Below are positions 1,036-48,100 of a DNA stretch of 64,000 nucleotides, in pieces. Under the pieces are notes generated by a model. It made no database searches. It was not told where the DNA came from and saw only the letters and a program-made list of their open reading frames with translations. The stretch covers positions 27 to 64,026 of the forward strand of contig CAZRMJ010000003.1 of NCBI GenBank assembly GCA_964601175.1, given 5' to 3'. Within the stretch, counting starts at the first letter, position 1, and each line of letters begins with the position of its first letter. Made by a program: the position numbers and the translations under genes. The stretch is from Candidatus Woesearchaeota archaeon (GTDB lineage Archaea > Nanobdellota > Nanobdellia > Pacearchaeales > GW2011-AR1).

Positions 1036-1287
1036 ATGATCTATTACTTACTAACCTTAATTCTAGCAATCCCTACAGGTTTTATTATAGCAAAACTAGC
1101 AAATGATGAACTAATAGATGGATTTAGATACATAAAATCCCTATTTGTAGCATCATTCATCTTAATGGCAATATCCTCATTTTATAATGAAGTATTCACG
1201 TTAAGCATGGGATTTATATGCATAGTTAGTTACATAAGCACCCTACTAAGATTTGACAAAAGATGGGCAACAGAAAGATTCAGATAA
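1036..1287 (+). CDS. Small membrane protein (unknown)
   Basis: Two or three hydrophobic helices. The in-frame ATG at 1036 lies 1 nt after the CBS stop, whereas the track start at 1027 is TTG. Confidence 0.5.
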   Translation: MIYYLLTLILAIPTGFIIAKLANDELIDGFRYIKSLFVASFILMAISSFYNEVFTLSMGFICIVSYISTLLRFDKRWATERFR

Positions 1288-1289
1288 TC

Positions 1290-1400
1290 AAAAAATCGAT
1301 ACACTTTCAATCATATGAATTTGATAAGTGTTCGATTTTTGGATGATCGAAGTGCTAACCACGACTTGATAGGAGTGGTTTAGGAAAGCACTTGCGACAT
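1290..1400. repeat. Conserved double-hairpin element, copy 1 (candidate structured RNA or regulatory element)
   Basis: AAAAATCGA (1291-1299) pairs with TCGATTTTT (1332-1340), enclosing the inner stem ACACTT/AAGTGT. Next come GGATGATCGA, a second hairpin AAGTGCT/AGCACTT with nested AACCAC/GTGGTT, and GCGACAT. The same architecture occurs at 4490-4596. Confidence 0.45.
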
Positions 1401-1433
1401 AAGGTATAAAAGGTAGTTTCAAAACTATTCTAT

Positions 1434-4211
1434 ATGGAAGATGTAAACCAAAATGAATTAGAAACAATAGAATTTTGGAAAAAAGACAAAACGTTTGAAA
1501 AATCTCTGAAAAACAAGAAAAAACAATATGTTTTCTATGATGGTCCTCCGTTTGCAACAGGACTTCCCCATTATGGACATCTTTTGTCTAGTACGATAAA
1601 AGACACAATACCTAGATTTTGGACAATGAAAGGATTCAAAGTAGAAAGAGTATGGGGTTGGGACTGTCACGGGTTACCTGTAGAAAGCATAGTAGAAAAA
1701 AAACTTAATTTCAAAAGTAAAAAAGAAATAGAAAACTTAGGAGTAGATAAATTCTGTAACGAATGCGAAAGTACTGTATTAAAATATGTCCATGATTGGA
1801 AGGGTTTTGTAGAAAGATTGGGAAGATGGGTAAATTTTGACAACTCTTACAAAACAATGGATACAAATTATATGGAATCTGTATGGTGGGCATTCAAAGA
1901 AATCTGGAATAAAGGATTGATATATGAAGGAAGAAAAGTCTTGATGTATTGTCCAAGATGTGAAACTCCATTATCAAACGCAGAAATAGCGATGGATAAT
2001 AGCTATAAGGATATCACAGAACCTTCTGTAACAGTAAAATTCAAAATAAAAGGAAAAAATGAATATTTCTTAGCGTGGACAACAACTCCTTGGACATTAA
2101 TAGGAAATGCCGCACTTGCAGTAAAAACAGATGCGCAATACGTCAAGGTAAAAAGCAACAAAGAAATCTACATATTAGCAGCAGATAGACTGTCTGAATT
2201 GAAAGATAGTCATGAAATAATTGGATCTTTTAAGGGAAAGGACCTACATGGAATAGAGTATGAACCATTATACTTCATAAAAAATGAAAAGAAAGGACAC
2301 TATGTAATAGATGAAAATGAAAATATTACTGTAACTGATGGTACTGGAATAGTTCATATGGCAGCATATGGAGAATTTGACTATTCTATGATAAAGAAAT
2401 TTGATCTTCCATTAATAGAACACATAGGATTAGATGGAAAATTAAAAGAAGGTCCAACAGAATGGAAGGGACTATGGTTTAAAACATTAGATAAAGAAGT
2501 AGTAAAAGACCTTGAAAAAAGGAACCTTTTATACAAAATACAAAATAATAAACACAGTTACCCTTTCTGTTACAGATGCGATACTCCTTTATTTTACGCA
2601 CCACTCCCTTCTATGTTCATAAACATACAAAAGGTGAAAAAAGATATTCTAAAAAATAACGAAAAAATAAATTGGTACCCAAACCACCTAAAAGAAGGAA
2701 GATTCAAAAACAATATCTTAAACGCTCCAGATTGGAATATCTCAAGAAATAGATATTGGGCTTCAGTAATCCCTGTGTGGAAATGCTCTTGCGGAGAAAT
2801 AAAAGTAATAGGCAGCATAAAAGAACTAAAAGATAATGCAATAAATTTCCCAAAAAAAATTGACCTGCATAAACCAGTAATGGACAAAGTTAGATTAAAA
2901 TGCAAATGTGGTAAAGAAATGTCCAGAGTTCCAGAGGTTTTAGATTGCTGGTTTGAATCAGGATTAATGCCCTTTGCACAGGTACACTATCCATTTGAGA
3001 ATGAAAAATGGTTCAAAGAAAACTTCCCAGGAGATTTTATTTCTGAATATATTGCTCAAACAAGAACTTGGTTCTACTACATGCTAGCATCTTCAACTAT
3101 ATTATTCAATAAACCGTCTTTCAAAAATGTAGTAACAACTGGAACAATCTTAGCATCAGATGGTCAAAAAATGAGTAAATCAAAAAATAATTACCCCGAC
3201 CCGATGAATTTAATTTCAAAATATGGTGCGGATTCTTTAAGATTCTACTTACTAGGATCTCCAATAATGTCCTCTGAAGATATTAATTTTTCAGATAAAG
3301 GTGTTGAAGAGGTTTACAAAAAAATAATTTTAATCTTATCTAATACGTTGAATTTCTATCTGATAAATTCAAAAGGAAAAAGTATCATGCCTAAAAGAAC
3401 CAAGATACTCGATAAATGGATCCTATCTAGAATAGCAGAACTAGGTCTTTCAGTAAACTCAAGTTTAACGAGCTACGACACCATAAATGCTGCAAAGGAA
3501 ATTTCTAAGTTTGTAGATGATCTTTCTACATGGTATGTTAGAAGAAGTAGAGAAAGATTCAACGAACAAGAAGCAGAAAACGCAAGAGCGGTACTCAAAA
3601 AAGTACTCAATGATTTTGCAATAATTTCAGCACCAATGTTACCATTTATGTCTGAAAAAGTATATAGAACAATTAATGAAAATAAAGAATCCGTACATCT
3701 GCAAAATTGGATTGAATATTCTAAAAAAGAAGTAGATCAAAAAGTCATAGAATCTATGTCTAAAGTAAGGAAAATTGTAAGTGAAGCTCTAAAAATAAGA
3801 GATACAAATAAGATTCAAGTAAGACAACCACTAAAGGAGCTAACTATCCCAATTAAACTTGAAGATGAATTTTTAGAAATAATTGCCGATGAAGTAAATG
3901 TAAAAAAAGTAGTTTACAACAAATCAGATCAAATATCCCTAGACTTAGAAATAACTCCAGAATTAGAAGCAGAAGGATTTGCTAGAGAAATAGCAAGAAA
4001 AATACAAAGTGCTAGAAAAGAAAAAGATATGAAAAAAGAAGAACGTATAGTCTTAGAATTAAAAATAAGTGAAAATCTTAAAAAAAGATTATCAGAATAT
4101 CTAGAATTTATATCTAAAAGAGTTGGAGCAAGCAAATTGATACTTTCAGACAAAGACAAAGGATTTACAAATTTTGAATTAAAAGGAGAAACCATAGGTT
4201 TCAAATTTTAA
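1434..4211 (+). CDS. ileS: Isoleucyl-tRNA synthetase (archaeal/eukaryote-like type)
   Basis: HIGH region PPFATGLPHYGHLL, GWDCHGLPVE, editing-domain-length insert, WNISRNRYWASVIPVW, KMSKS loop QKMSKSKNN. 925 aa. Confidence 0.93.
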   Translation: MEDVNQNELETIEFWKKDKTFEKSLKNKKKQYVFYDGPPFATGLPHYGHLLSSTIKDTIPRFWTMKGFKVERVWGWDCHGLPVESIVEKKLNFKSKKEIENLGVDKFCNECESTVLKYVHDWKGFVERLGRWVNFDNSYKTMDTNYMESVWWAFKEIWNKGLIYEGRKVLMYCPRCETPLSNAEIAMDNSYKDITEPSVTVKFKIKGKNEYFLAWTTTPWTLIGNAALAVKTDAQYVKVKSNKEIYILAADRLSELKDSHEIIGSFKGKDLHGIEYEPLYFIKNEKKGHYVIDENENITVTDGTGIVHMAAYGEFDYSMIKKFDLPLIEHIGLDGKLKEGPTEWKGLWFKTLDKEVVKDLEKRNLLYKIQNNKHSYPFCYRCDTPLFYAPLPSMFINIQKVKKDILKNNEKINWYPNHLKEGRFKNNILNAPDWNISRNRYWASVIPVWKCSCGEIKVIGSIKELKDNAINFPKKIDLHKPVMDKVRLKCKCGKEMSRVPEVLDCWFESGLMPFAQVHYPFENEKWFKENFPGDFISEYIAQTRTWFYYMLASSTILFNKPSFKNVVTTGTILASDGQKMSKSKNNYPDPMNLISKYGADSLRFYLLGSPIMSSEDINFSDKGVEEVYKKIILILSNTLNFYLINSKGKSIMPKRTKILDKWILSRIAELGLSVNSSLTSYDTINAAKEISKFVDDLSTWYVRRSRERFNEQEAENARAVLKKVLNDFAIISAPMLPFMSEKVYRTINENKESVHLQNWIEYSKKEVDQKVIESMSKVRKIVSEALKIRDTNKIQVRQPLKELTIPIKLEDEFLEIIADEVNVKKVVYNKSDQISLDLEITPELEAEGFAREIARKIQSARKEKDMKKEERIVLELKISENLKKRLSEYLEFISKRVGASKLILSDKDKGFTNFELKGETIGFKF

Positions 4212-4263: not shown

Positions 4264-4458
4264 ATGGAAGAAGAAAACAAAAAAACAGAAGAAGAGCAGT
4301 CTGAAGAGGCTGAAGATTCTGAGATTTCCGAAGAAGAAACATCTGAAATGGAAGATGAATCCGAGACATCAGAAGAGTCCGAGGATTCAGAAGATTCAGA
4401 TGATTCTGATGAATCTGAAGAAGATTCTAAGGAAGAAGAATCAAAAGAAGAGAATTAA
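4264..4458 (+). CDS. Highly acidic Glu/Ser/Asp-rich small protein (unknown)
   Basis: 64-aa ORF that is almost entirely E/S/D. It is low complexity, so coding status is uncertain. No competing ORF. Confidence 0.4.
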   Translation: MEEENKKTEEEQSEEAEDSEISEEETSEMEDESETSEESEDSEDSDDSDESEEDSKEEESKEEN

Positions 4459-4489
4459 TCTCTTATAAAGAATAATTTTTATTTTTATT

Positions 4490-4596
4490 AAAAAATCGAT
4501 GCATCATCTTACAATTTAATATCATGTCTGATGAATGCTCGATTTTTAGATGATCGAAGTGTCTAATACATTCAAAATGAAAGACACTGTCGACAT
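4490..4596. repeat. Conserved double-hairpin element, copy 2
   Basis: AAAAATCGA (4491-4499) pairs with TCGATTTTT (4539-4547). The inner stem is GCATCATC/GATGAATGC (one bulge). Next come AGATGATCGA, the hairpin AGTGTCT/AGACACT and GTCGACAT. Confidence 0.45.
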
Positions 4597-18202: not shown

Positions 18203-18430
18203 TTTAACTAATCCTCTTTTTACTAATACATATTTAAATCTTTTTGAAAAAATTAATAAAAAAATTAAAACGAAAAGATTTATTAATAAAAACTACAAAA
18301 AAATTAACAGCCCAAAAATTACAAAATCATAAAAAAATTTAAATTGAATTAAATTTTACAATTTTTTAAATTTTTAGAACACAATTAACAAATTGAAGAT
18401 AAATAACTTAAAAAAATATTGAAAGTATCA

Positions 18431-18540
18431 CAAAACCCTGATGGGTTTTATACTCCACCCTAAAGGGTGGAGTTTGCTAGTGGGTTTTGGGATTACCGTT
18501 GAATATCTCCAAAGCAACTACTCCAATCTAAAGATTGGAG
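18431..18540. other. Cluster of three stable hairpins downstream of aEF-2 (candidate ncRNA or 3'-UTR structure)
   Basis: CAAAACCC-tgat-GGGTTTT (18431-18449), CTCCACCC-taaa-GGGTGGAG (18453-18472) and CTCCAATC-taaa-GATTGGAG (18521-18540). The two CTCC hairpins differ by compensatory changes. A T7 run on the minus strand follows at about 18410-18416. Confidence 0.4.
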
Positions 18541-18564
18541 ATTTCAACTAGTATTAACTAAAAT

Positions 18565-33194: not shown

Positions 33195-33259
33195 ATAATT
33201 TTTTATAAGAATATCTATTTTGTAATTTCGATTTTTAGGAACCCGAAGTTTTTAAATCT

Positions 33260-35773: not shown

Positions 35774-38700
35774 CTATTTAAAATTGGCTCTTTTGAAGTT
35801 CTGAATATTTCTCATATAATATCCAGATCTACTGAAAAAGAAACCATTTCGCTTAAGATACATTACTACGTAAACTATTCCAGCCACTAATATCAAGATT
35901 ATCAAAGCATATACTGCATAGGTTTTGTAGCTAATTATTGAAAACCATGTACTTGCATTTACTATGCTTTCTTCATTATCATTTTCTCTACTTGGATATA
36001 CTGCTTTAACGTTTAGTAAGTAAACTCCACGAGTAAGTTCTTTTGGAACATTAATTGTTTTAAGTAAACTTGTTTGTGTGCTTACCGCTACTGTTTCATG
36101 TTCAATATCATATATCTGTCCAGTACTTGTATCTTCTATTGAATAATAGACCACTACATCAACTTCGCCTATGTCTCCTAAGTTTAATATTTGTACGCTT
36201 GCAAGTATTTTCCCGCCAGGACTTATTATTCTTCCATCTAATATTTCTGTGTTTATATCGAACAATGCGCCTTTAGAAGATGCGTCTATTGCAACTAACA
36301 CTTCATCTTCAAATCCGGGTGCCTTTGCAACTATCTTTCCAATATAAAGCTCAGGAGCAGCATCTTCTCTTACAATGAAATCTACTTTAACTGTTTTTGA
36401 CATTCCTGGTTCAAGAGTTATTTCAGTTTCAGATAACTTCAATTGATCCTTAAGTCCAGATACTTCAAGATTCAAAGCAATATTTCTATTACCCGTATTT
36501 TCAATTACTAAGTCCCTTGTTGAAGTTTGTCCTTGTTTAAGAGAAACTTTCATATTTTGAGGGCTAAACAACACTTCTTTCAGCCTTTCTGCTCCTAAAA
36601 GCGGAGTTAGTTCTATGGTTGCAGAATTCCTTAAACTATTTATTGAATTTAGTTTAACTGAAAGGTCGTCTAAGCCATCTTTATTGAAATCAAAGTTCTT
36701 AGAGTCTACAATATCAAGAGTAAAGACTTCAGGAGTACTTTCCATTGTGAATATTGCTTTTGAACCATCATATCCGTTAAATGTTATATGGTGTATCTGA
36801 CCATTTCCTATGGAAAAGCTCTTCCTATTAGAAGAGAATATTTCCCTATTTGTTCCTCTAATTATTCTACCAAATGAATTATCGCTTCCGAAAGAAGATC
36901 CGCCGCTTCCTCCGCCGGATCCGCCATTTCCATTAGAACCTCCGTTTCCGCCATTTCCAGATCCTGTAGGAAGATTCTTATCAGAGAATAAACCAAAGAA
37001 TAATCTCATTAAGTCAGAGAATCCTTTAAGTATATGACTATTTCTTTGAGTAGAATTTGTCAAACTTAATCTCTGCACCAATTCTACTAAATATTGTGTA
37101 AGTCCTCCAACTCTTGAAGCTATAGATTGAAGAACTATCTGCTGAGTTTGTAGCCTAAATATTCTTCCAAATCTTGTCACAGAATTAGTAATGGAAATAT
37201 CTTGTATGGCAACTCTTACTCTACTTGCTTGTTTATACAGCGAATCTGACAAACCGATATTTGTTGAACTAATTCTAAAGATTCCCGAGAATCTTGAAGC
37301 ATAATCTTCTAGACTTATTTCATTAGATATCTCTCTGTTTGCTCCAAAGAATCTTTCTAAATTAAAGTTGAAGCTTATCAAATTAGTTGGTAATCTGAAT
37401 ATATTTCCAATTCTTTCAGAAGCTAAATTTAATCCAACTATTTGCGAATTAATTCTATTTGCTCCAAGATTACCTCTAAATCCTAAGTCAAGAGTAAATG
37501 AATCATCCGTAGATCTAAACATATAAGCTAATCTATTGACGGCGTTATCTATTGTTAATCTTTGAGTATTGATTCTAAACAATCCACTAAATCTAGTGTT
37601 GCTTTCTGCAACATTCACATTTATGGAACTTGTTCTAATTAGATTTGCCAATCTGTTGATTGTTTCATTAAGATTGATTCTTTCTATAAGTTGAATTACA
37701 TACTTTAATATTTCAGCACCTAAATTGGTTCCGGCTCTAACATTAACAACTTGTGTAGGGGTCCTAAACATTCCCAAGAATCTGTTTACAGAATCACTCA
37801 AACCTATAGAATTAGAAGCAATTCTGTTAGCTCCATAAGTTCTTGAAATTCCTAAGCTAAATCCTAAAGAATCTTGGTTTACTCTAAATATTCCAGAATA
37901 TTTGCTATTACTATTATCAACCGCTATAGTTTGAGAGTTTATTCTGAATAGTCCAAGTAATCTTGTTACAGCGTTATCTAGTGTAAGAGTTTGGGCATTT
38001 ACTTTAAACAATCCACTAAATCTAGTATTTTTCTCATTTACATTTATACCTTGTTGATTAATTCTAAACAAACTAGCAAGTCTGGTTAGACTATTATCTA
38101 TTGTAAGTCTCTGAGTGTTCAATCTAAACAATCCAGAGAATCTTGTATTGGTATCGTCAATAGTCAAAGTTTGAGAGTTTATTCTGAATAATCCTGAGAA
38201 TCTTGAGTTACTATTTACCAAGTTTAATTGTTGACCCATTATTCTAAATAATCCTCCAAATCTAGTATTGCTTTCTGTAATTCCGATATTATTGTTATTG
38301 ATTCTGAATATTCCTGCAATTCTATTTGCTATACTATTCAGACTCATGTCCTGTATGTTTGCCCTAAGCCCAATATAGTTTCTATTTGATACTGCGTCAA
38401 TTGAAAGCAAGTTAGTTGGTATTTTGAAAATGCCTGCTAATCTTTCAACGGAATTATTTAAGTTAAGCTGTTGAACTAATTCTACAAGGTACTTTAGAAT
38501 ATTCTGAACATTAATAAGAACTTCATTTACATTTATGACTTGTAATTGTATCCTGAATAATCCTAATAACCTGTAACTATTTTCATCTAGACTTATAGTT
38601 TGTTGATTTATTCTAAATAATCCTGAGAACTTATTAGCATTTTCACCGAAAACAAATTCTTGATTGTTAATTCTAAATAATCCTCCGAATCTAGTATTGC

Positions 38701-41700
38701 TTTCTGTAATTCCAATATTATTGTTATTAATTCTGAATATTCCCAAGAATCTATTTACAGAATCACTCAAACCTATAGAATTAGAAGCAATTCTGTTTGC
38801 TCCATAAGTTCTTGAAATTCCTAAGCTAAATCCTAAAGAATCTTGGTTTACTCTAAATATTCCGCTATATCTTGTATTAGCATTATCAACAGCTATAGTT
38901 TGTGAGTTTATTCTGAATAGTCCAAGTAATCTTGTTACAGCGTTATCTATAGTCAATCTTTGAGTGTTGATTCTGAATAACCCACCAAATCGAGTATTAC
39001 TTTCTCCCAGGGTTAAACTATCAGAATTAGTCTTGAATAATCCCCTAAATTTACCAAATTGACTATTAAGGAGAATCTCTAAGTTGCTATTCTTAAATAA
39101 ATCCCCAATTCTATAATTTGAACCATTTATTCTTAAAATACCGGTCAAATTTATAGAATAAGTATTGACTAAATTAAGTGCGCTAAATGTAATATTTGTA
39201 GTAGAGTTTAAGTTATTGCTTGAATCCCAACAAAAGTATTTTGCAACGTAACTTCCATCAGAAATTGTAGAATTTGTAGCATTAAAGTCCCTATTGCCAT
39301 TATTTTGCATGGTATAATTTAATTTACCATTAGTTAATGTAAAGTTACATGCGCTTCCATCTTTGTTCAAGGTTACATTAAATAAGATCGGAGGATTCAA
39401 GGTATCGTTAGCAGGGTTATTTATTGTAACTTGAGGAGGAGTTATATCATTATAAATGACTGTAAAGTTAGTTGAATTCATAGCGCGATTACTTGCATTA
39501 TCAAAAGTAAGATAATTCCAAACATATGTCCCGGAATAAGGCAAGGTCACTGTAATATTGGTACTATCTGCCAATCCAACTATTGTAGCATCAGTAGTGT
39601 TAATAATATCTCCAGTAGAATTCCAAACATATAAAGTAGTATTATGAAGTGCGAAATTATCGCTAAAGGTGGCATTAAAACTAACCACAGGATCTGTTAC
39701 AGTGGTGCCATTAGAAGGTGCATTCAAATTCGTAACTGGAGGAATATTCTGTTCATAAACTACATCTGCGGACATGAAGTCAACACCAAATCCACCAGTA
39801 GCTGTGCTATTCTGATATGCCATCAATCTAAATTTACTATTAGACACAAAATGATCCATTTCGGAGACAGATAAATTATAGGTAGTAGTGTTCAATACTC
39901 CTATTGCTCCAGCACTAAAGTTTACTCTTCTCCAACCTCCAGAAGTAAAGTTCCATAAAGCCATACCCTTCATATGATTAGCTACTGTTGTATTTGATCT
40001 AACTGTAAGAAATATTCTTGTTATTGCTTCATTAGAAGGTACTGTGAAGTTAACAAATACAAAAGTATCTAAAGATGCACTTTCCCCTCTTGGCCTAAAT
40101 GCAATATTATTTGAAGTATTAAGGCCATTTATGCCACTTGAAGTAAGAAGAGACGTTCTTTGTATTGCAAATCCTCCAGTATCTGTATGAGTTCCGTTTG
40201 AAGCTCGTTGAGAAACTGCATTAGGAACCAATGTTTCAGAGACTAATGGATCTACAATATTATCGAATTGCAAATCTCCTCCTGAAATAAGCAAATCAAA
40301 AACACTTTGAGATCTACTACCTAAATTAGTCAAGAAAACAGTATTGTACTGATTATCAGTTATTGAAGTAAAGTTGACTATCTGATTCGTTCCATCTTCT
40401 TCATATACTGTAATCATTGGAGTTCCAGAAATAGTTCTTGGGTATATAGTAATATCATTAGAAGAAGTAAGATTCTTGTTAAAAGCAATTCTAACATAAT
40501 GCGTATCTGAAATAGTTTCGCTCCATATACCATCTATTTGTCTAACTGAATCAAAAATATTAGAAATAATAGTTCTATTTTCATCTAAGTGTAAAGCCTT
40601 TGTCAATTCTACAAATCCAAATGCAGAATTTCCAGAAGGCAAGGTAATATTATATTCTTGTCCAGGAGTTAGATCATGAAGAAATGGTTCCCATCCACTA
40701 GAACAACTTTGATCTGTAAAGTTCCATGAAGGACAATTCTTCAGCTCAGAACTTTGAGCTGTAAAGAAAACAGTATAATTAGTGAAATTATCCAATAAAG
40801 GATCAACGCTAAATACACTAAATAGGTTGTCTAAACTCGAAACACTATCCAATCTTGCAACTTCTAAAGATGTATCTGTAATATTTTGTTCTGTCAAATT
40901 TATATTGTCAAATCTTATTCTATCAACATAATCTATATCTAAAGGAAATACCCTTATTGTATAAGTAGAGTTTATCGGAATTATTGCAGTTAAGTTATCT
41001 CCAGTTTCATTATATACAAAAGAATTAGCAACTTCATCATATATTGTAACTTTAGCATTAATAGGATTCCCATTAGAATCTAAAACAGTCCCATTTACTA
41101 AAGCATATTGTTGAACAACTGAAAAGCTAACATTAGAAGTATAATTAGCATTACCATTAACGTCTTGTGCGTAGACTTGGAAAGTATAATCTCCAAAATC
41201 AAGATCTCCGCTACTAGCATTAAAGTTAAGCCCATCTTCAGAGCTCATTGAAATATTAGTTAAACCATTATCTAATGTATAATTTGCTACTCCATTTTCA
41301 TTTAATGAAATATTAAATGAAAGAGGCAGATCTAAAAGCCTAGAATATTCAGCATTATTTTCAGGAGAGTTAATGGTTACTAATGGAGCATTAGCATCTG
41401 AAGTCATACAAGTAACATTAACAAAATCAAAACCTGCTTCTTCATTTAAATCATTTTTACTTGCAGTTACTCTTATTTTGAAGTTGTTATTTAATCCAAC
41501 TCCAGAAGTAATATTATATGTCTCTGTATCCCAGGTGTTATCTTCACAAGCCTGACCATTAGTACATGAAAAGATGTTTACAAAATTCCCGCCTGAATTT
41601 GTAACATTTACATAATAAAATTCACCATTATCAAAAGAACTATCAACATATCTAGAATAAGTAAGAATGCATTCGCTATAAGGTGTTAAATCAAGAGAAT

Positions 41701-42355
41701 TTGTTAATTGTAACGCATTAATCGCTCCATTTTCAGCACAAGCACATTGAGCCCCATCAGCACAATTGGTAGGACATAAATTAACGTTAGACCATCCAGT
41801 CCCAGAAACTTCTGTCCAATGAGTCCAAGAAATTCCATCCTCAAAACTGTCGGAAAATACTTCTGTAACTGTTGGATCTATTATATGATCAAATTTAATT
41901 GATCCATTAATAACTCTTAAATCAAATTGATCTTGAGATTTTATTAAATCCCTTAGAAAGATCTTATTATATGAATCACTTGTTATGTCCCTAAAAGAGG
42001 CAATAACTTTATCCTTATCTTTTTCATAAACCTCTATTATTGGATTTCCATTAGTTACTATTGGATATATAGTAATATCATCAACAGAAGTAAGATTCTT
42101 CTCAAATGTAACTCTTACATATTCTCCATCATTTATTTCATTACTCCAAATATTATCTTTTGATTTAATAGAATCATAGATCTTTTCAACAAAGTTCCTA
42201 TTAACATCAAGATGTTCAGCGTTTACTATTTGTATCGAATTAAATCTATTTTGTTCATTATTTAAAAAGAGAATTAATTTATGAAGATTAATTAAAATTA
42301 ATATTCCCAGAGTTAAAACTAAAACGCCTATCAAGATAACCTTTTTATTATTCAT
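35774..42355 (-). CDS. Giant (~2193 aa) N-X-S/T-rich surface protein: N-terminal anchor, two HLD..FDHIIDP modules, Ig-like domains, 20-residue repeat array, Gly/Asn/Ser linker, two Ig-like domains, C-terminal TM
   Basis: Uninterrupted 6.6-kb ORF. The ATG at 42355 follows GGAGGG and overlaps the upstream wHTH stop as ATGA, whereas the track start at 42373 is TTG. The C-terminal TM is YAVYALIILILVAGIVYVVMY. Confidence 0.85.
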   Translation of the reverse strand: MNNKKVILIGVLVLTLGILILINLHKLILFLNNEQNRFNSIQIVNAEHLDVNRNFVEKIYDSIKSKDNIWSNEINDGEYVRVTFEKNLTSVDDITIYPIVTNGNPIIEVYEKDKDKVIASFRDITSDSYNKIFLRDLIKSQDQFDLRVINGSIKFDHIIDPTVTEVFSDSFEDGISWTHWTEVSGTGWSNVNLCPTNCADGAQCACAENGAINALQLTNSLDLTPYSECILTYSRYVDSSFDNGEFYYVNVTNSGGNFVNIFSCTNGQACEDNTWDTETYNITSGVGLNNNFKIRVTASKNDLNEEAGFDFVNVTCMTSDANAPLVTINSPENNAEYSRLLDLPLSFNISLNENGVANYTLDNGLTNISMSSEDGLNFNASSGDLDFGDYTFQVYAQDVNGNANYTSNVSFSVVQQYALVNGTVLDSNGNPINAKVTIYDEVANSFVYNETGDNLTAIIPINSTYTIRVFPLDIDYVDRIRFDNINLTEQNITDTSLEVARLDSVSSLDNLFSVFSVDPLLDNFTNYTVFFTAQSSELKNCPSWNFTDQSCSSGWEPFLHDLTPGQEYNITLPSGNSAFGFVELTKALHLDENRTIISNIFDSVRQIDGIWSETISDTHYVRIAFNKNLTSSNDITIYPRTISGTPMITVYEEDGTNQIVNFTSITDNQYNTVFLTNLGSRSQSVFDLLISGGDLQFDNIVDPLVSETLVPNAVSQRASNGTHTDTGGFAIQRTSLLTSSGINGLNTSNNIAFRPRGESASLDTFVFVNFTVPSNEAITRIFLTVRSNTTVANHMKGMALWNFTSGGWRRVNFSAGAIGVLNTTTYNLSVSEMDHFVSNSKFRLMAYQNSTATGGFGVDFMSADVVYEQNIPPVTNLNAPSNGTTVTDPVVSFNATFSDNFALHNTTLYVWNSTGDIINTTDATIVGLADSTNITVTLPYSGTYVWNYLTFDNASNRAMNSTNFTVIYNDITPPQVTINNPANDTLNPPILFNVTLNKDGSACNFTLTNGKLNYTMQNNGNRDFNATNSTISDGSYVAKYFCWDSSNNLNSTTNITFSALNLVNTYSINLTGILRINGSNYRIGDLFKNSNLEILLNSQFGKFRGLFKTNSDSLTLGESNTRFGGLFRINTQRLTIDNAVTRLLGLFRINSQTIAVDNANTRYSGIFRVNQDSLGFSLGISRTYGANRIASNSIGLSDSVNRFLGIFRINNNNIGITESNTRFGGLFRINNQEFVFGENANKFSGLFRINQQTISLDENSYRLLGLFRIQLQVINVNEVLINVQNILKYLVELVQQLNLNNSVERLAGIFKIPTNLLSIDAVSNRNYIGLRANIQDMSLNSIANRIAGIFRINNNNIGITESNTRFGGLFRIMGQQLNLVNSNSRFSGLFRINSQTLTIDDTNTRFSGLFRLNTQRLTIDNSLTRLASLFRINQQGINVNEKNTRFSGLFKVNAQTLTLDNAVTRLLGLFRINSQTIAVDNSNSKYSGIFRVNQDSLGFSLGISRTYGANRIASNSIGLSDSVNRFLGMFRTPTQVVNVRAGTNLGAEILKYVIQLIERINLNETINRLANLIRTSSINVNVAESNTRFSGLFRINTQRLTIDNAVNRLAYMFRSTDDSFTLDLGFRGNLGANRINSQIVGLNLASERIGNIFRLPTNLISFNFNLERFFGANREISNEISLEDYASRFSGIFRISSTNIGLSDSLYKQASRVRVAIQDISITNSVTRFGRIFRLQTQQIVLQSIASRVGGLTQYLVELVQRLSLTNSTQRNSHILKGFSDLMRLFFGLFSDKNLPTGSGNGGNGGSNGNGGSGGGSGGSSFGSDNSFGRIIRGTNREIFSSNRKSFSIGNGQIHHITFNGYDGSKAIFTMESTPEVFTLDIVDSKNFDFNKDGLDDLSVKLNSINSLRNSATIELTPLLGAERLKEVLFSPQNMKVSLKQGQTSTRDLVIENTGNRNIALNLEVSGLKDQLKLSETEITLEPGMSKTVKVDFIVREDAAPELYIGKIVAKAPGFEDEVLVAIDASSKGALFDINTEILDGRIISPGGKILASVQILNLGDIGEVDVVVYYSIEDTSTGQIYDIEHETVAVSTQTSLLKTINVPKELTRGVYLLNVKAVYPSRENDNEESIVNASTWFSIISYKTYAVYALIILILVAGIVYVVMYLKRNGFFFSRSGYYMRNIQNFKRANFK
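37771..37980 (-). repeat. Near-identical 210-nt intragenic duplicate, copy A
   Basis: Matches 38740-38949 almost base for base, apart from a ~25-nt divergent patch. The offset is 969 nt. Confidence 0.85.
38740..38949 (-). repeat. Near-identical 210-nt intragenic duplicate, copy B
   Basis: See 37771-37980. A shorter duplicate also occurs (about 38250-38320 vs 38680-38745). Confidence 0.85.
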
Positions 42356-45119: not shown

Positions 45120-48100
45120 CTAACCTCCAACTCCTGCAGCATAAGTATCTCCCGTACCTAAAACTATAGTGAATGTAATAGTAGAAGATCTAGATCCTGG
45201 ATTTTCCGAAGAAGGAACTGTAACGTTGATATCTATCTCTGCACTATCTGAAGAGTACGTATAATTAAGATCTGTAATTATCTTAGTATTATTTGAAGTT
45301 TGAGGGACAGGGAAATAAGTAGTTTTAGAAGTTGGCCATTTAAATGAACCATTTTCAGAAATTCCATTTGTAGTAACATTATCTGCTTTAGCTAAATAAT
45401 AAGATGAAGGATTTGTTAAACTCTGCCAAAGATCAGTAGCTTGAATAGAAATATCGACGAGAGAGTTACCTTGATTAACCAATATAATCGGATTAGGAGA
45501 ATTATCTACAGTATCATTGGATGCAAGATAATTCAAATTACCGAAGTCTATCGAACTTATGTTCATTATAGTATCTAAATAAGCCTGGACGCTAAGCCTA
45601 TATTTAGGAGAATAAGAACCATAATTAACCCCATCATCAGAAGCAGAAGCACTCCAAATATAACGATCATTATTATCAATCAAACAATTGAATCCCAAGA
45701 ATAGCGTAGAAATATCAAATGTATTAATAAATTCAGGCTCATAAATATTTGCTCCATTGAAACTAGAATCTGTGCATACTGAAGAACCAGAAAGACTAAT
45801 ATTGAATCTGGAAGAGACTATCGAATCACCATCATCATCACTAATTGCAATAGAAAATATTTGAGAAGTCCTATTAAAAGTAACAGAGCTATTTATTGGA
45901 GATATCAAACTTACATTTGGAAGACTATTAAGAATAGTTAAATTACTTGAATTAACTGAAAAAGAAGAAAATCCATCATTTAATATCAATTGGGCAGACC
46001 AGTTCTGACCTTTAGTTGTGTTTCCATAACCCAAAGAAGCAATAAATGTAGTGCCATTAGCATAACTAGAATTATAAGGTATAGATAGATGTCTAACACT
46101 ATTATTATACCAAACTACTGTAACATTTATAGTATTATTGTTCTGATCCAACAGCGTTGTCCTTATATTCAAATTATCAAGAGTTTTATTTGTTCCTAAA
46201 GTAGAATTAATTACTAATGAAGTTCCATTATAAGGAGCAACATTTGTAGATACAGTTATAGTTCTAGTTTCAGTGGAATTAATATTTCCATAGATATCTT
46301 GAGCATAAGCTTTGAAATTGTGAGTTCCAGAAGAAACGCTAGAATAATCTATTAAGCTATATCTATCTGATTGGTTTTCATAAAGCTGTGCTATTTCAGT
46401 CTGAGACAAAGATCTATTGAAAAACATAACATTATCGATACTCCCATTGAAGTAATTTAGGGTCTGTGATCCTCCTTGACCTATAGTTACACTTCCAGAT
46501 ATAACATTACCAGGTGAAAAAGTAAATGGAGTACCATTAACTCCATTTTTGTATAATTTGGAATTAGAACCATTAGCAACTAAAGCAATTTGACTCCAAG
46601 AGTTTGCTGAAACTTGTAATTGAGTATCGGCAGCAGGAGGAGAAACAACAAAAACATTTCCAGTTGAATTTATTCCCAATCTATACTGGAAGTCTCCAAA
46701 AGCATCAGAATCTTCCCTAGAAAGAACATCTCCCCCAAGAGTAAAAGGCTTTATCCATGCGACAATAGTAAAACGATCTAAAACATCTAATGGAGCAGCT
46801 GGACTATTAGCAAGATCTGGATCTCCAAGATCCAAGTAATCTCCATTTCCATCAAAAGAAAATGAACCTCTAAACCTACCGCTTGAGTTAGGTGCAGCAT
46901 TTCCGTTAATTGTACCATTTATAACGCCAAGATAATCATAAACGATAGTAGGACTATAATCATCCATTCTCCACCATCCAACTAAAGATTTATCAAAATC
47001 AACGAAAACGCTAGTATTACTCAAATCAGAAACACTAACGTTTATTGAAAAACTACTAGATTGAGTACTAGCATTAACCGGAGTAGGTCCAGTAAAATTA
47101 ATAGTTGGAGGAATACCATCTGAAACCGTAAATGTTCTAGTCTCGCTAATTTTTTGATTTCCAGCATCATCTAAACAAGTAACATTCCAATAATGGTCGC
47201 TAATAGAAAATCCGCTAACACTTACATTAACAAGAGTATTGTTTGAAGAACCAATATTAGATTTGTTAACTGAATTATCTATAGTCAAATTACAGTTAAG
47301 GGAAGTATCTATAGCATCTGTAGCAGTCCAATTAAATGATATTGGAATTCCAGATGAACTAGTACTTGCATTAGAAGGAGCATTCAAAGTGATATTTGGA
47401 GCAGTAGAATCAATATAGAAAGTATATATTGGAGTTGCATTAAGAGCCCCAGTATCTCCGCTAACATTAGCCCTTAAGAAATATACTCCTTCATTTAGCC
47501 TGTATGCATTTAATATTTCTGAAGCAGTTAAAGTTCTATTATAAATAACAAGATCGTCAATTAATCCGGGAAAATAACCAGTAGCAATAGGGGCAGAGCC
47601 AACTCTTAAAGTCCCACTTATATTTGGAAGATAAGCCGAGTTTGTATTTAAAGTACTAGAAGAGTTAAGATAACCATTAACATAAGTAGCAGCATCTCCT
47701 GTAGCTCTATCAAAAGTAACTGCATAATGATACCAAGTAATATTTGGCATAAATATTGCACTAGTGCCAATTGCTACATTAGATGTGCCATTACCTGTAT
47801 CGAAAGAAATAGTTTTAGTCGAGTTTAAAAACTCGACATTATAACTTCTATTGACAAATGTACCGACTCCAGATCTAGAAACTGGAGATGGCCAACTATA
47901 AATAGTATCATTAAGGGATAAATTAAACCAAAACATAATAGTTATCTGCCCAGTAAAGTATGGAGACGCAAGCAAAGTATTTTCTGAAAATGATATCACT
48001 TGGCTTCGATTGCCTCTAAAAGCATTTCCTAAACCAGTTATACTTTTTTGTCTACCTCCTTCAGCATTAGTCACGGTACCATTAAATTGACCGGTCGCGA

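What the first reader, a model, noticed from the sequence alone, without database searches (positions are those of the whole stretch)
1290..1400. Double-hairpin element with compensatory stem changes, present twice (candidate novel structured RNA)
The two ~110-nt copies (1290-1400 and 4490-4596) share identical blocks: AAAAATCGA, TCGATTTTT-(G/A)-GATGATCGAAGTG, and CACT-(T)G(T)-CGACAT. The sequence between the blocks differs but keeps its pairing. In hairpin 1 the inner stem is ACACTT/AAGTGT in one copy and GCATCATC/GATGAATGC in the other. In hairpin 2 the stem is AAGTGCT/AGCACTT in one copy and AGTGTCT/AGACACT in the other. Conserved stem bases and junction combined with covarying stems and unrelated loops points to selection on RNA or DNA structure. 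Simple duplication of a mobile repeat would not be expected to leave this pattern. The GATGATCGA ... CGACAT pair is reminiscent of, but does not match, box C/D (RUGAUGA/CUGA). The 3' ACA is reminiscent of H/ACA RNAs, but no two-sided pseudouridylation pocket is evident.
Basis: seen in the sequence. Interest (0 to 1): 0.65.

Follow-up and report, generated by a model that had tools for sequence, protein, structure and literature searches.

The report
Guide-bearing hairpin insertion element of DPANN archaea
The two look-alike double hairpins are copies of a small mobile DNA repeat that litters the genomes of tiny Pacearchaeota/Woesearchaeota archaea, often sits in-frame inside essential genes, and appears to choose its insertion site by base-pairing with a four-letter bulge in one hairpin.

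Summary
Window 1287-1400 and 4487-4596 are two ~110-nt double hairpins (fold z -5 to -8) with the shared blocks and compensatory stems described.

They are not a private RNA gene. There is no Rfam match.

- **Both window copies are insertions.** A 66.5-kb contig of a relative (IleRS 97% identical) lacks both precisely.
- **Covariation is strong** (22 of 39 pairs). G·U pairs (1.6%) are as rare as A·C, so the constraint acts on DNA hairpins rather than RNA.
- **Copies sit in-frame inside genes** (AlaRS, a GyrB intein, E2 acyltransferase). One frame is open, and the inserted length is a multiple of three in 74 of 111 sites, as in Rickettsia palindromic elements.
- **New finding: guide-like bulges.** The TTTN bulge of hairpin 2 is complementary to the four host bases after the insertion point (75 of 88 sites). 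The TTTGAT bulge of hairpin 1 is complementary to the element's own 5' end.

Best reading: a non-autonomous hairpin transposon with cis guides, closest in logic to IS200/IS605. The mobilising enzyme was not found.

The parts
1287..1400 (+). Copy 1 of the element (114 nt counting the AT at both ends; inserted DNA is 112 nt, 1289-1400 or equivalently 1287-1398).
   Evidence: Sequence. Covariance model hit of 93 bits. Precisely absent from relative L240, whose empty site is TTCAGATA-AT-AAGGTATAAAAGG. Present in strains 98-100% identical in DNA runs.
1287..1344 (+). Copy 1, hairpin 1: ATC.AAAAATCGA foot, ACACTT/AAGTGT stem, closing TCGATTTTT.GAT.
   Evidence: Folds. Family consensus structure, helices 1 and 2.
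1320..1325 (+). Copy 1, TTTGAT bulge of hairpin 1. It is complementary to the element's own 5' end ATCAAA (1287-1292).
   Evidence: Read from the sequence. The same 6-nt bulge appears in canonical copies. The guide role is inferred.
1341..1345 (+). Invariant GGATG junction between the hairpins. Its ATG pairs with the terminal CAT, or its GAT with the 5' ATC. Extra hairpin modules are inserted just after it in larger family members.
   Evidence: Invariant columns. Alternative pairings. Larger variants.
1343..1400 (+). Copy 1, hairpin 2: ATG, bulged A, TCG-AAGTGCT lower stem, CCAC/GTGG upper stem, terminal CGACAT.
   Evidence: Folds. The lower stem covaries freely across the family: TCGAAG/CTTCGA, TCAAAG/CTTTGA, TCAACG/CGTTGA, TCGACG/CGTCGA.
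1379..1381 (+). Copy 1, TTT guide bulge of hairpin 2. It is complementary to the host bases AAG at 1401-1403, directly after the insertion point.
   Evidence: Family-wide complementarity between this bulge and the 3' flank. In this copy two Watson-Crick pairs and one G·T.
4487..4596 (+). Copy 2 of the element (110 nt). It is a degenerate member: its 5' end is ATTAAAAAA instead of ATCAAAAAA, and neither hairpin keeps a TTTN bulge.
   Evidence: Sequence. Covariance model hit of 76 bits. Absent from relative L240, whose empty site is TTTTTATTAAAAAACCTTATAAAC. Present in close strains.
4487..4551 (+). Copy 2, hairpin 1 (AAAAATCGA foot, GCATCATC/GATG.ATGC stem).
   Evidence: Folds.
4550..4596 (+). 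Copy 2, hairpin 2 (ATG, bulged A, TCGA-AGTGTCT lower stem, terminal GTCGACAT).
   Evidence: Folds.
18427..18554 (+). Related second-type element (starts ATCACAAAAC, ends CAACTAGTAT), intergenic. The same type directly follows GACAT of type-I copies in L065, L001 and L166.
   Evidence: Covariance model hit of 22.8 bits, E 0.005. Sequence. Comparison with L065 and L001 and L166.
1285..1287 (+). Context: TAA stop codon of the upstream 86-aa ORF. Its last base is the first base of copy 1. The stop is kept in the empty site.
   Evidence: ORF list. Empty-site sequence.
1405..1434 (+). Context: TATA-like box TATAAAA (1405-1411) about 25 nt before the IleRS start codon (1434). Copy 1 lies just upstream of it. 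This stretch is identical in the relative without the element.
   Evidence: Sequence and alignment. The promoter assignment is an inference from known archaeal promoter spacing, not a test.

Best explanation
The two window features are copies of a non-autonomous mobile DNA element found in Pacearchaeota/Woesearchaeota (DPANN archaea).

**Architecture (shown).** A unit is two hairpins on one strand. Each hairpin has a conserved foot containing TCGA, a freely covarying lower stem, an 8-bp upper stem with a TAAA-type loop, and a bulge of about 6 nt on the 3' arm that begins TTT. The invariant parts are ATCAAAAAATCGATG at the 5' end, GGATG between the hairpins and GACAT at the 3' end.

**Insertion site (shown).** The element is found after a host AT. 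It ends in AT itself, so AT stands at both junctions, and head-to-tail tandem copies share one AT.

**Guide-like pairing (shown).** The TTTN bulge of hairpin 2 is Watson-Crick complementary to the four host bases that follow the insertion point (N'AAA). Subfamilies with TTTT, TTTC and TTTG lie next to A.., G.. and C.. respectively. The TTTGAT bulge of hairpin 1 is complementary to the element's own 5' end, ATCAAA.

**Mechanism (inferred).** The element folds as single-stranded DNA. An enzyme supplied in trans recognises the two hairpins and uses the bulges as cis guides for the element end and for the target. This is the logic of IS200/IS605 'peel-and-paste' transposition by a Y1 HUH transposase. 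Read on the bottom strand, the target would be TTTN-AT^ and the right end TTTG-AT^.

**Tolerance inside genes (shown pattern, inferred cause).** One reading frame is open, and the inserted length is usually a multiple of three. Copies landing after an NAT codon therefore add 25-79 residues instead of breaking the gene. This lets the family persist in gene-dense genomes, as Rickettsia palindromic elements do.

**In this window.** Both copies are intergenic insertions. Copy 1 lies between a stop codon and the IleRS promoter and keeps both bulges. Copy 2 has lost them and is probably an immobile relic.
For: **Family size and host range.** A genome scan found about 20 archaeal loci, with five contigs of one MAG carrying copies. 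Together these gave 152 copies, 120 of them distinct. The covariance model found further copies, up to 4-5 within one locus.

**Recent spread.** An identical 122-nt copy lies at six sites with unrelated flanks.

**Insertion polymorphism.**
- Relative L240 (JGI contig of 66.5 kb, IleRS 97% identical) lacks both window copies. Its flanks at site 1 are identical for at least 40 nt on each side.
- Relatives at 76-78% IleRS identity have only 41 nt between the same two genes and no model hit.
- Homologous small proteins in L213 and L231 carry the element at different positions.
- Mini-elements are nested inside larger ones, and tandems share the junction GACATCAAAAAATCG.

**DNA-level structure.** 22 of 39 pairs are compensatory and 0 of 500 shuffles reach this. 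G·U is 1.0% of all cells, and 1.6% at variable pairs against 1.6% for A·C. Both strands fold equally well as DNA, z -9.9 and -9.5 for a canonical copy.

**Guide pairing.** The bulge base N is complementary to flank +1 in 75 of 88 sites. Permutation gives a mean of 38.6 and a maximum of 53 in 20000 trials. Mutual information is 0.81 bit at +1 and insignificant at nearly all other flank positions. All four GG-TTAT-C bulges have T at +2, where T is 5% overall.

**The flank is host sequence.** This follows from empty site 1 and from one-to-one residue alignment of host proteins across insertion sites: L191 against L180, and L213 against L231.

**In-frame habit.** Inserted length is a multiple of three in 74 of 111 sites. 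Sense frame 3 is open in 66 of 111, against 3 and 5 for the other sense frames. Of 13 sense copies flanked by long ORFs, 11 are in that frame. Hosts include AlaRS, GyrB inteins, an E2 acyltransferase linker and a PheRS-beta-like protein. The AlaRS insert replaces a 5-residue connection of the Aquifex structure.

**Candidate enzyme class is present.** IS200-type Y1 transposase genes occur in these genomes (L167, L159).
Against: - **No mobilising enzyme found.** There is no transposase or recombinase domain in 40 window ORFs. No such family recurs among the 142 ORFs nearest to elements, though that output lists only the 25 families with most matching members, so single matches would not show.
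- **No autonomous copy.** No copy has a kb-sized insert between its ends.
- **The IS200-type genes do not match.** The two found are flanked by unrelated hairpins.
- **Guide position differs from IS608.** Here the guides sit in bulges inside the hairpins. From my own knowledge, in IS608 they sit 5' of the hairpin foot.
- **Other mechanisms fit the AT.** The AT at both junctions is equally compatible with a 2-bp duplication or a conservative crossover at an AT core.
- **Signs of homology-dependent exchange.** In copy 2 and in a short AlaRS copy the element's 5' end equals the target sequence over about 9 nt. This hints at branch migration, which IS200/IS605 does not use.
- **Ascertainment.** Some invariance of the hairpin-1 foot is due to the search patterns, which required it.
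- **Transcription and translation were not observed.**
- **A few genic copies carry in-frame TGA** (L174, L137).
Confidence: 0.72

Rival explanations
1. RNA-guided recombination of the IS110 'bridge RNA' kind. The element would be transcribed, and its two bulged hairpins would act as a donor-binding loop (TTTGAT with ATCAAA) and a target-binding loop (TTTN with N'AAA). A recombinase supplied in trans would exchange strands at the shared AT core.
For: - There are two hairpins, each with an internal bulge complementary to the sequence just right of a shared dinucleotide, one in the donor and one in the target.
- AT stands at both junctions and once in tandem junctions, as expected for a conserved core.
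- The 5' end takes over the target sequence in copy 2.
Against: - G·U pairs are as rare as A·C mismatches, which argues against an RNA-level constraint.
- Only the right side of the core shows complementarity. No left-flank position carries information.
- No recombinase gene is linked to any copy.
- No promoter is evident at copy 1, and transcription was not shown.
- At 71-122 nt the unit is much smaller than described bridge RNAs (about 180 nt, from my own knowledge).
Confidence: 0.1
2. A family of structured non-coding RNAs (small RNA genes or cis-regulatory RNA). The hairpins would be selected for an RNA function such as protein binding.
For: - Covariation is strong, with invariant junction and end motifs.
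- Orientation is clearly defined: 130-145 bits on one strand against about 30 on the other.
- Some hairpin-2 loops carry GA/GA juxtapositions that resemble a K-turn or K-loop (read from the sequences).
- The element matches no known family.
Against: - Both window copies are absent from a close relative with otherwise identical flanks.
- Copies lie in either orientation relative to neighbouring genes and in-frame inside coding sequences, including antisense copies.
- Identical copies lie at unrelated sites, and copies are nested and in tandem.
- G·U is not enriched over A·C.
- The GA/GA motif is not conserved; both window copies lack it.
- A multiple-of-three length and an open frame are not expected for an RNA gene.
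Confidence: 0.06
3. A mobile intron-like element. Copies inside genes would be removed from the mRNA, for instance by the archaeal splicing endonuclease, so that the host protein is unchanged.
For: - Copies interrupt essential single-copy genes such as AlaRS and GyrB.
- Two genic copies carry in-frame stop codons while the host ORF continues in phase on both sides (L174, L137).
- Assemblies from RNA-seq libraries lack both window copies.
Against: - Those RNA-library contigs are the genome of the relative, which also lacks the copies in a 66.5-kb JGI contig. They therefore say nothing about splicing.
- The second joint has a different sequence (TTT) rather than a clean excision.
- Read by eye, the boundaries cannot form a bulge-helix-bulge motif, because only AT can pair.
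- An intron needs neither an open frame, nor a multiple-of-three length, nor a fixed phase. Yet 11 of 13 genic sense copies are in the one open frame.
- Antisense in-frame copies exist (L186).
- Most copies are intergenic.
Confidence: 0.05
4. Immobile palindromes that serve mainly as bidirectional transcription terminators or insulators between genes. They would be generated and lost by local replication slippage.
For: - Hairpin 1 is flanked by A6 and T5, which looks like a terminator on either strand.
- Several copies fill the whole gap between convergent genes (L091, L093).
- Copy 1 sits between a stop codon and the next promoter.
Against: - This does not explain identical copies at unrelated sites.
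- It does not explain in-frame copies inside genes.
- It does not explain the invariant second hairpin and ends.
- It does not explain the bulge-to-flank complementarity.
- A side effect on termination remains possible.
Confidence: 0.04

Closest known systems
Rickettsia palindromic elements (RPEs; Ogata et al. 2000, 2002, as summarised in PMC10969869)
   Same: - Small (about 100-150 bp) palindromic multi-copy repeats in a reduced, gene-dense genome.
- Many are inserted in-frame into unrelated protein-coding genes.
- Each carries an open frame that yields a peptide insert (for RPEs; here).
- No linked transposase, and the mobilisation route is unknown.
   Different: - The host domain differs (archaea, not alphaproteobacteria).
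- No sequence relation was tested or is expected.
- Here the unit is two defined hairpins with invariant ends.
- Here the insertion site is defined (AT^N'AAA).
- Here there is bulge-to-target complementarity. To my knowledge this has not been reported for RPEs.
IS200/IS605 family and its miniature derivatives (PATEs): single-strand 'peel-and-paste' transposition by the Y1 HUH transposase TnpA
   Same: - No terminal inverted repeats.
- Hairpins at both ends on the same strand.
- Insertion next to a short specific sequence without a classical duplication.
- The element end and the target are recognised by base-pairing with short cis 'guide' sequences next to the hairpins, so a changed guide changes the target. 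This mechanism is from my own knowledge of IS608 and ISDra2.
- Y1 transposase genes occur in these genomes.
   Different: - No cognate TnpA or TnpB was found with these ends.
- The guides lie in bulges within the hairpin arms, not 5' of the hairpin foot.
- The whole unit is only 71-122 nt.
- The in-frame habit is not a known feature of PATEs.
- AT stands at both junctions.
IS110-family bridge RNA (target-binding and donor-binding loops around a shared core dinucleotide)
   Same: - Two stem-loops have internal loops complementary to the donor and to the target.
- A dinucleotide is shared by donor and target and ends up on both sides of the inserted element.
   Different: - The constraint here looks DNA-level.
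- Only one side of the core is matched.
- No recombinase gene is attached.
- The element itself would have to be both the donor and the guide gene.
Classical prokaryotic MITEs and REP/BIME repeats
   Same: - Short, non-coding for a transposase, multi-copy, hairpin-forming and mostly intergenic.
- Some are co-transcribed with neighbouring genes.
   Different: - There are no terminal inverted repeats. The ends are ATCAAAAAA and GACAT.
- There is no multi-base target duplication.
- There are two separate hairpins rather than one long foldback.
- According to the review read, archaeal MITEs have been described in Sulfolobus, Halobacterium, Haloquadratum and Desulfurococcus, not in DPANN.

Membership tests
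Any Rfam family (including box C/D, H/ACA and known ribozymes) | A covariance-model match at or near the family's gathering score. | tested here: not met
   There were no hits on the elements at gathering thresholds in the window. At E up to 10 the only hits were chance miRNA-like hairpin matches far below threshold. There were no hits on six related loci.
Box C/D sRNA | C box RUGAUGA and D box CUGA forming a K-turn, with single-stranded guide regions. | tested here: not met
   GGAUGAUCGA does not fit RUGAUGA, and there is no CUGA partner. The would-be guide regions are fully base-paired with each other.
Archaeal H/ACA sRNA | Lower stem, two-sided pseudouridylation pocket, upper stem with K-turn or K-loop, and a single-stranded ACA 3' of the stem. 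| tested here: not met
   There is no two-sided pocket; the bulge is on the 3' arm only. The ACA of GACAT lies within or abuts the stem.
Classical MITE | Terminal inverted repeats. | tested here: not met
   The 5' end ATCAAAAAATCGATG and the reverse complement of the 3' end (ATGTCGAAG..) are not inverted repeats of each other.
Classical MITE | Target-site duplication of fixed length. | tested here: inconclusive
   Only AT is shared by both junctions. This could be a 2-bp duplication, a crossover core, or a target AT plus the element's own terminal AT.
Classical MITE | Small, multi-copy, encodes no transposase, and shows presence/absence polymorphism. | tested here: met
RPE-like in-frame palindromic element (a functional class, not a sequence family) | Repeated palindromic unit inserted in-frame in unrelated protein-coding genes, with one open frame. 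| tested here: met
   Ten open in-frame genic copies were found in different proteins. Frame 3 is open in 66 of 111 copies, and the inserted length is a multiple of three in 74 of 111.
RPE-like in-frame palindromic element | The insert is translated and compatible with the host protein's fold. | not testable with these tools
   The only evidence is indirect: intact essential genes carry the insert, and the AlaRS insert falls in a 5-residue connection of the solved Aquifex enzyme. No proteome or RNA data were available.
IS200/IS605-derived miniature element (PATE) | Hairpins at both ends on one strand, without terminal inverted repeats. | tested here: met
IS200/IS605-derived miniature element (PATE) | Insertion next to a specific short sequence that pairs with a cis guide; the element's end cleavage site pairs with a second guide. 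| tested here: met
   The TTTN bulge matches the N'AAA flank in 75 of 88 sites, with a second covarying position. TTTGAT matches ATCAAA at the other end. The position of the guides differs from IS608.
IS200/IS605-derived miniature element (PATE) | A full-length relative with the same ends that encodes TnpA (Y1) and/or TnpB. | tested here: not met
   None was found in about 0.9 Mb of loci held. Two IS200-type TnpA genes were found, but with unrelated end hairpins. Whole genomes could not be searched.
IS110 bridge-RNA system | The guide RNA is encoded next to a DEDD recombinase gene, and both flanks of the core are matched by loop guides. | tested here: not met
   No adjacent recombinase was found. 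Only the right flank carries information.
Archaeal bulge-helix-bulge intron | A bulge-helix-bulge motif formed across both boundaries. | tested here: not met
   The boundaries share only AT, and no 4-bp helix flanked by 3-nt bulges can be drawn (sequence). Phase and frame statistics also argue against splicing.
Integron attC site | R''/R' core sites (RYYYAAC / GTTRRRY) and arrays of co-oriented gene cassettes. | tested here: not met
   Neither motif is present in the consensus. Copies lie in both orientations among housekeeping genes.

The most novel reading that the evidence does not exclude
The element is a minimal self-targeting transposon, 71-122 nt long, that carries its own programmable address. 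A four-base bulge in one hairpin specifies the host sequence next to the insertion point. A matching bulge in the other hairpin specifies the element's own end. Natural subfamilies have already been retargeted by single-base changes (TTTT, TTTC, TTTG, TTAT). The enzyme that reads these guides would be an undescribed or highly divergent single-strand transposase or recombinase of DPANN archaea. The in-frame design would be an adaptation for colonising coding sequence in genomes with almost no intergenic space.
Probability: 0.3. Interest if true: 0.85.

Novelty: new variant of a known kind. Interest (0 to 1): 0.7.

Why it matters
- **Annotation.** A cautious annotator would otherwise call these features small RNAs, terminators or odd protein inserts. 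Recognising the family explains unexplained 38-79-residue inserts in essential DPANN proteins such as AlaRS, GyrB inteins and E2. It also explains apparent N- and C-terminal extensions, and it should be masked before phylogenomic or indel-based analyses of these lineages.
- **Convergence.** In-frame palindromic 'selfish DNA', known from Rickettsia, also arose in archaea with reduced genomes. This suggests it is a convergent solution to life in gene-dense genomes.
- **Targeting rule.** The complementarity between a hairpin bulge and the host bases next to the insertion point gives a concrete, testable rule. The rule has natural variants. If an enzyme is found, this would be an unusually small guide-directed DNA insertion system.
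- **Strain typing.** Presence or absence of copies can distinguish otherwise very similar strains in wastewater and groundwater metagenomes.

Tried and rejected
- **Rfam.** I searched at gathering and at permissive thresholds on the window and on six related loci. Nothing relevant turned up.
- **K-turn, box C/D and H/ACA.** I read the sequences for these. GA/GA juxtapositions exist in some hairpin-2 loops but are not conserved. The C-stem/NC-stem geometry does not fit, and the window copies have A·A instead. Rejected.
- **T-box-like leader of IleRS, or aaRS-linked regulator.** An apparent cluster of 'AlaRS' neighbours turned out to be unrelated proteins joined by the element-encoded peptide. 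Rejected.
- **A third partial match at 33228-33255**. It has no hairpins or end motifs. Chance.
- **Viral contigs.** No copy was found.
- **Autonomous copy.** No copy has a kb-sized insert between GGATG and hairpin 2.
- **Linked enzyme.**
  - All-against-all clustering of 926 neighbouring ORFs found no linked enzyme.
  - A Pfam scan of the 142 nearest ORFs gave housekeeping genes, nucleotidyltransferase/HEPN-type modules and RhuM, but no recurrent transposase.
  - Forty window ORFs carry no transposase or recombinase domain.
- **Probing with IS200-type TnpA sequences written from memory.** This found two genes, but their flanking hairpins are unrelated to the element.
- **RNA evidence.**
  - RNA-library contigs that skip both copies proved to be the relative's genome, not spliced RNA.
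  - One metatranscriptome covers only the last 18 nt of copy 1.
  - No RNA run holds a genic copy.
- **Left-flank guide.** No left-flank position shows association with the hairpin-2 guide base.
- **Literature.** Three full-text searches found no description of such elements in DPANN archaea.
Full report
**1. The observation**

Window 1287-1400 and 4487-4596 (+ strand) are two stretches of about 110 nt. They share these blocks:
- ATCAAAAAATCGAT at the 5' end (ATT in copy 2);
- TCGATTTTT(G/A)GATGATCGAAGTG in the middle;
- CACT..CGACAT at the 3' end.

Each copy folds into two hairpins far better than shuffled sequence:

| Folded as | Copy 1 +/- | Copy 2 +/- |
|---|---|---|
| RNA | z -6.4 / -7.0 | z -5.2 / -5.0 |
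| DNA | z -7.9 / -7.5 | z -5.5 / -5.9 |

The conserved blocks occur exactly only at these two places in the window. A third partial match at 33228 is chance.

**2. The organism**

- The window carries a tRNA with a long intron that a bacterial-style tRNA finder misses.
- Its genes have TATA-like boxes about 25 nt before the start codon (read from the sequence).
- Its IleRS is closest to proteins named Candidatus Pacearchaeota.
- Near-identical DNA is found in wastewater, activated-sludge and aquaculture metagenomes.

So this is a DPANN archaeon of the Pacearchaeota/Woesearchaeota group.

**3. A large family, not a pair**

- *Genome scan.* I scanned one genome per species for GATTTTTNGATGATCGAAG. 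Besides a bacterial coding motif, this returned about 20 low-GC loci from Woesearchaeota, Pacearchaeota and 'Nanoarchaeota' MAGs that carry the whole element. Five contigs of one MAG had copies.
The loci come mostly from groundwater.
- *Viral contigs* gave nothing.
- *Totals.* I extracted 152 copies, 120 of them distinct. The modal lengths are 116 and 122 nt, and the range is 61 to more than 240 nt.
- *Model search.* A covariance model built from 29 diverse copies finds further, more divergent copies, up to 4-5 within a few kb.
- *In the window* the same model finds only the two copies, plus a relative of a second type at 18427-18554.
- *Rfam* has no matching family.

**4. Anatomy**

A canonical copy reads as follows:
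- ATC, then A;
- hairpin 1: foot AAAAATCGA/TCGATTTTT, a bulged T, a 6-bp stem, an 8-bp upper stem with a TAAA-type loop, and a 6-nt bulge TTTGAT on the 3' arm;
- GGATG;
- hairpin 2: ATG/CAT, one bulged base, a 10-bp lower stem, an 8-bp upper stem, and a bulge beginning TTTN on the 3' arm;
- the terminal GACAT.

Short forms of 71-80 nt lack the upper stems but keep the ends.

Larger forms carry extra hairpin modules at fixed places:
- a 66-nt module right after GGATG;
- a module in the apical CTAAAG loops;
- a 51-nt mini two-hairpin element nested in the hairpin-2 bulge, which has the same kind of ends (ATCAAAAAC...TTTTTGACAT).

Head-to-tail tandems share one AT, giving GACATCAAAAAATCG (L131, L226, L232).

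**5. Structure is selected, but at the DNA level**

On the 29-sequence alignment, 22 of 39 pairs show changes on both sides and 97% of cells are paired. No shuffle out of 500 reaches the observed values, and sliding the partners destroys the signal. The lower stem of hairpin 2 runs through these variants:
- TCGAAG/CTTCGA
- TCAAAG/CTTTGA
- TCAACG/CGTTGA
- TCGACG/CGTCGA
- TCACGATG/CATCGAGA

On 81 distinct copies, G·U makes up only 1.0% of paired cells. At the 22 variable pairs, G·U (1.6%) is no commoner than A·C (1.6%).

An RNA helix tolerates G·U and not A·C. A constraint that is the same on both strands, as for DNA hairpins or a cruciform, treats them alike. I therefore read the covariation as selection on DNA secondary structure. 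That alignment was fitted to the model, which leans towards pairing but not towards a particular pair type.

**6. The window copies are insertions**

- *RNA-library contigs.* Two RNA-seq-library assemblies contain a contig about 93% identical to the window. It skips 1287-1398, with a 2-nt ambiguity, and 4490-4594.
- *Same sequence in a long contig.* It is also present in a 66.5-kb JGI contig whose IleRS is 97% identical (P0002, L240). The skips are therefore the relative's genome, not RNA splicing.
- *Empty site 1* is TTCAGATA-AT-AAGGTATAAAAGG, with flanks identical for at least 40 nt on each side. The filled site is ..GATA-AT-[CAAAAAATCG...GCGAC-AT]-AAGG...
- *Empty site 2* is TTTTTATTAAAAAACC. 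The filled site has ATTAAAAAA at the element's 5' end and again in the flank.
- *More distant relatives* (76-78% IleRS identity) keep the gene order, have 41 nt between the two genes and give no model hit.
- *Close strains* (98-100% identical) in four DNA metagenomes keep both copies.

**7. Other signs of mobility**

- An identical 122-nt copy lies at six sites with unrelated flanks.
- Orientation relative to neighbouring genes is mixed.
- Homologous small proteins carry the element at different positions (L213, L231).
- Elements are nested within elements.

**8. In-frame life inside genes**

An ORF cluster that looked like 'AlaRS next to the element' turned out to be unrelated proteins joined by a shared peptide, QKIDAPPHLKRCGLIGARFLDARSVPHTKVCGFQTLRH. 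That peptide is the element read in its third frame.

Open, in-phase copies lie inside:
- AlaRS;
- the linker of an E2 acyltransferase;
- GyrB inteins;
- a PheRS-beta-like protein;
- a low-molecular-weight phosphatase (two copies);
- several other proteins;
- one further protein, with the copy in the antisense open frame (L186).

In AlaRS, the element plus a short second copy replace a 5-residue connection of the solved Aquifex enzyme.

Over 111 distinct sites:
- inserted length (length minus the shared AT) is a multiple of three in 74;
- sense frame 3 is open in 66, against 3 and 5 for the other two sense frames;
- one antisense frame is open in 35.

Of 13 sense copies flanked by long ORFs on both sides, 11 are in frame 3. 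One third would be expected by chance.

The codon before the insert is always NAT (Y, N, D or H). The peptide sequence itself changes freely with the stem covariation, so it is a passenger.

This is the pattern described for Rickettsia palindromic elements (PMC10969869, read). I infer selection at the level of the element for being tolerated in gene-dense genomes.

A few genic copies have in-frame TGA (L174 in a RhuM-like gene, L137). These may be recent knock-outs. Splicing cannot be excluded for them.

**9. Guide-like bulges (new)**

The host bases after GACAT are A-rich for about seven positions: +1 is A/G/C, and +2 is A in 86% of sites. The +1 base depends on the subfamily. It is the Watson-Crick partner of the fourth base of the hairpin-2 bulge:

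| Bulge | Partner base at flank +1 | Sites |
|---|---|---|
| TTTC | G | 14 of 16 |
| TTTG | C | 11 of 12 |
| TTTT | A | 49 of 55 |

- *Overall,* 75 of 88 sites are complementary. Permutation gives a mean of 38.6 and a maximum of 53 in 20000 trials.
- *Mutual information* is 0.81 bit at +1. At other flank positions it is at or near the null, at most marginally above it at +3 and +8.
- *A second position covaries.* The four copies whose bulge reads GG-TTAT-C (L130, L217, L177, L186) have T at +2. T is there in only 5% of all sites.

The flank is host sequence, not part of the element. It is present in empty site 1. Host proteins also align residue for residue across insertion sites: L191 against L180 in the GyrB intein, and L213 against L231.

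The corresponding bulge of hairpin 1, TTTGAT, is complementary to the element's own 5' end, ATCAAA.

So both hairpins have the same design. One bulge matches the bases right of AT in the element, and the other matches the bases right of AT in the target. Window copy 1 keeps both bulges (TTTGAT at 1320-1325, TTT at 1379-1381 against AAG at 1401-1403). Copy 2 has neither.

**10. Mechanism**

*Shown:*
- a defined insertion site, AT^N'AAA;
- AT at both junctions;
- cis sequences complementary to the element end and to the target;
- DNA-level hairpins.

*Inferred.* The element is moved in trans by an enzyme that binds the folded single strand and uses the bulges as guides. The closest known logic is IS200/IS605 transposition, where a Y1 HUH transposase binds end hairpins. 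There the cleavage sites, including the target, are recognised by pairing with short guide sequences, so a changed guide changes the target (from my own knowledge of IS608 and ISDra2).

Read on the bottom strand, the element would insert 3' of TTTN-AT and end in TTTG-AT. Each site is matched by a bulge in the adjacent hairpin.

*Weaknesses of this model:*
- No cognate enzyme was found. Forty window ORFs have no transposase or recombinase domain.
- The 142 ORFs nearest to elements show no recurrent transposase family.
- No copy has a gene between its ends.
- The two IS200-type TnpA genes found in element-bearing loci have unrelated end hairpins.
- The guides sit in bulges rather than 5' of the hairpin foot.
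- In copy 2 and in the short AlaRS copy, the element's 5' end has taken the target's sequence over about 9 nt. This hints at homology-dependent exchange.

An IS110-like, RNA-guided exchange at an AT core is the main mechanistic rival. The G·U result and the one-sided complementarity speak against it.

My estimates are about 0.9 that this is a mobile, insertion-polymorphic DNA element family, about 0.7 that the bulges act in target and end recognition, and about 0.4 that the enzyme is of the Y1 HUH kind.

**11. What it does in this window**

- *Copy 1* lies between the stop codon of an 86-aa ORF (TAA at 1285-1287, kept in the empty site) and the TATA-like box of IleRS (1405-1411; start codon 1434).
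- *Copy 2* lies between a 64-aa acidic ORF and the TATA-like box of a membrane-protein gene.
- *Possible side effects.* Hairpin 1 followed by T5 could terminate transcription, and the insertion changes the bases just upstream of the TATA box. Neither effect was tested.
- *Available RNA data* do not settle this. One metatranscriptome contig covers only 1383-1550.

**12. Comparison and novelty**

- *As a class,* the family behaves like Rickettsia palindromic elements: in-frame selfish palindromes.
- *In mechanism,* it most resembles miniature IS200/IS605 derivatives.
- *What it is not.* It is not a classical MITE, because it has no terminal inverted repeats. It is not an Rfam RNA, a box C/D or H/ACA RNA, a bulge-helix-bulge intron or an attC site.
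- *Prior description.* I found none for such elements in DPANN archaea in three full-text searches. A recent review lists archaeal MITEs only from Sulfolobus, Halobacterium, Haloquadratum and Desulfurococcus. Absence from that library is not proof of novelty.
- *Rating.* I rate it a new variant of a known kind. The bulge-to-target complementarity is the part that would surprise a specialist.

Noticed in passing
window 18427-18554 (+); also L065 (- strand) about 567-690, L001 84-235, L166: A second, related repeat type starts ATCACAAAAC and ends CAACTAGTAT. It has its own hairpins (CAAAACCC/GGGTTTT, CTCCACCC/GGGTGGAG, GTTGAATATCTCCAA...TTGGAGATTTCAAC). In several loci it directly abuts the GACAT end of a type-I copy. 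In the window it is intergenic, next to the aEF-2 gene.
   Followed up: partly
window 56281-56408 (+): A tRNA gene of 128 nt, so carrying an intron of about 57 nt. Rfam finds it but ARAGORN in bacterial mode does not. This is consistent with an archaeal host.
   Followed up: no
window 35777-42355 (-) and 45123-50882 (-): Two very large ORFs of 2193 and 1920 aa. One has 60-nt periodic internal repeats (37.2-39.1 kb), and they share paralogous segments (40.2-42.1 kb and 49.4-49.7 kb). They are probably repetitive surface proteins.
   Followed up: no
window 4264-4458 (+): A 64-aa ORF made almost entirely of Glu, Ser and Asp. The relative has a 71-aa version with several small indels (section 4).
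   Followed up: no
L180 1-3933 and L191 2731-5223: GyrB genes interrupted by inteins (two in L180). The hairpin element sits inside intein sequence, at different places in the two genes. This is selfish DNA nested in selfish protein elements.
   Followed up: partly
L167 743-1135 (+); L159 2-217 (+): IS200-type Y1 transposase ORFs (HUH motif DHVHFML in L167). They are flanked by their own GC-rich hairpins (CCCTATGG/CCATAGGG and CGCAGC/GCTGCG), which are unrelated to the element. In L167 an element copy lies 325 nt downstream on the other strand, inside a neighbouring ORF.
   Followed up: partly
L014 3299-3369, L041 3275-3345: Short 71-nt copies lie at the 5' end of genes for pilin-like proteins (..KKG/IARIIELLIAI..). 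In L014 a TTG inside the element's 3' end (CACTTGCGACAT) could serve as the start codon, giving a short MRHKKG leader.
   Followed up: no
L068 2312-2395, L093 about 2990-3230, L096 about 960, L149: Several copies lie directly beside tRNA genes. In L093 a copy sits between two tRNA genes. I did not test whether this is more frequent than expected for intergenic DNA.
   Followed up: no
L192 223 to beyond 550, L163, L205: Composite arrays of more than 240-330 nt are built from many nested small hairpins of the form TCAAAAA...TTTTTGA. This suggests repeated insertion of hairpin modules into the loops of earlier ones.
   Followed up: partly
window 51780-52160 (-) and 58108-59415 (+): One ORF matches a putative phage metallopeptidase family, and another matches a HerA/FtsK-like ATPase. 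These are possible remnants of a mobile or viral region.
   Followed up: no
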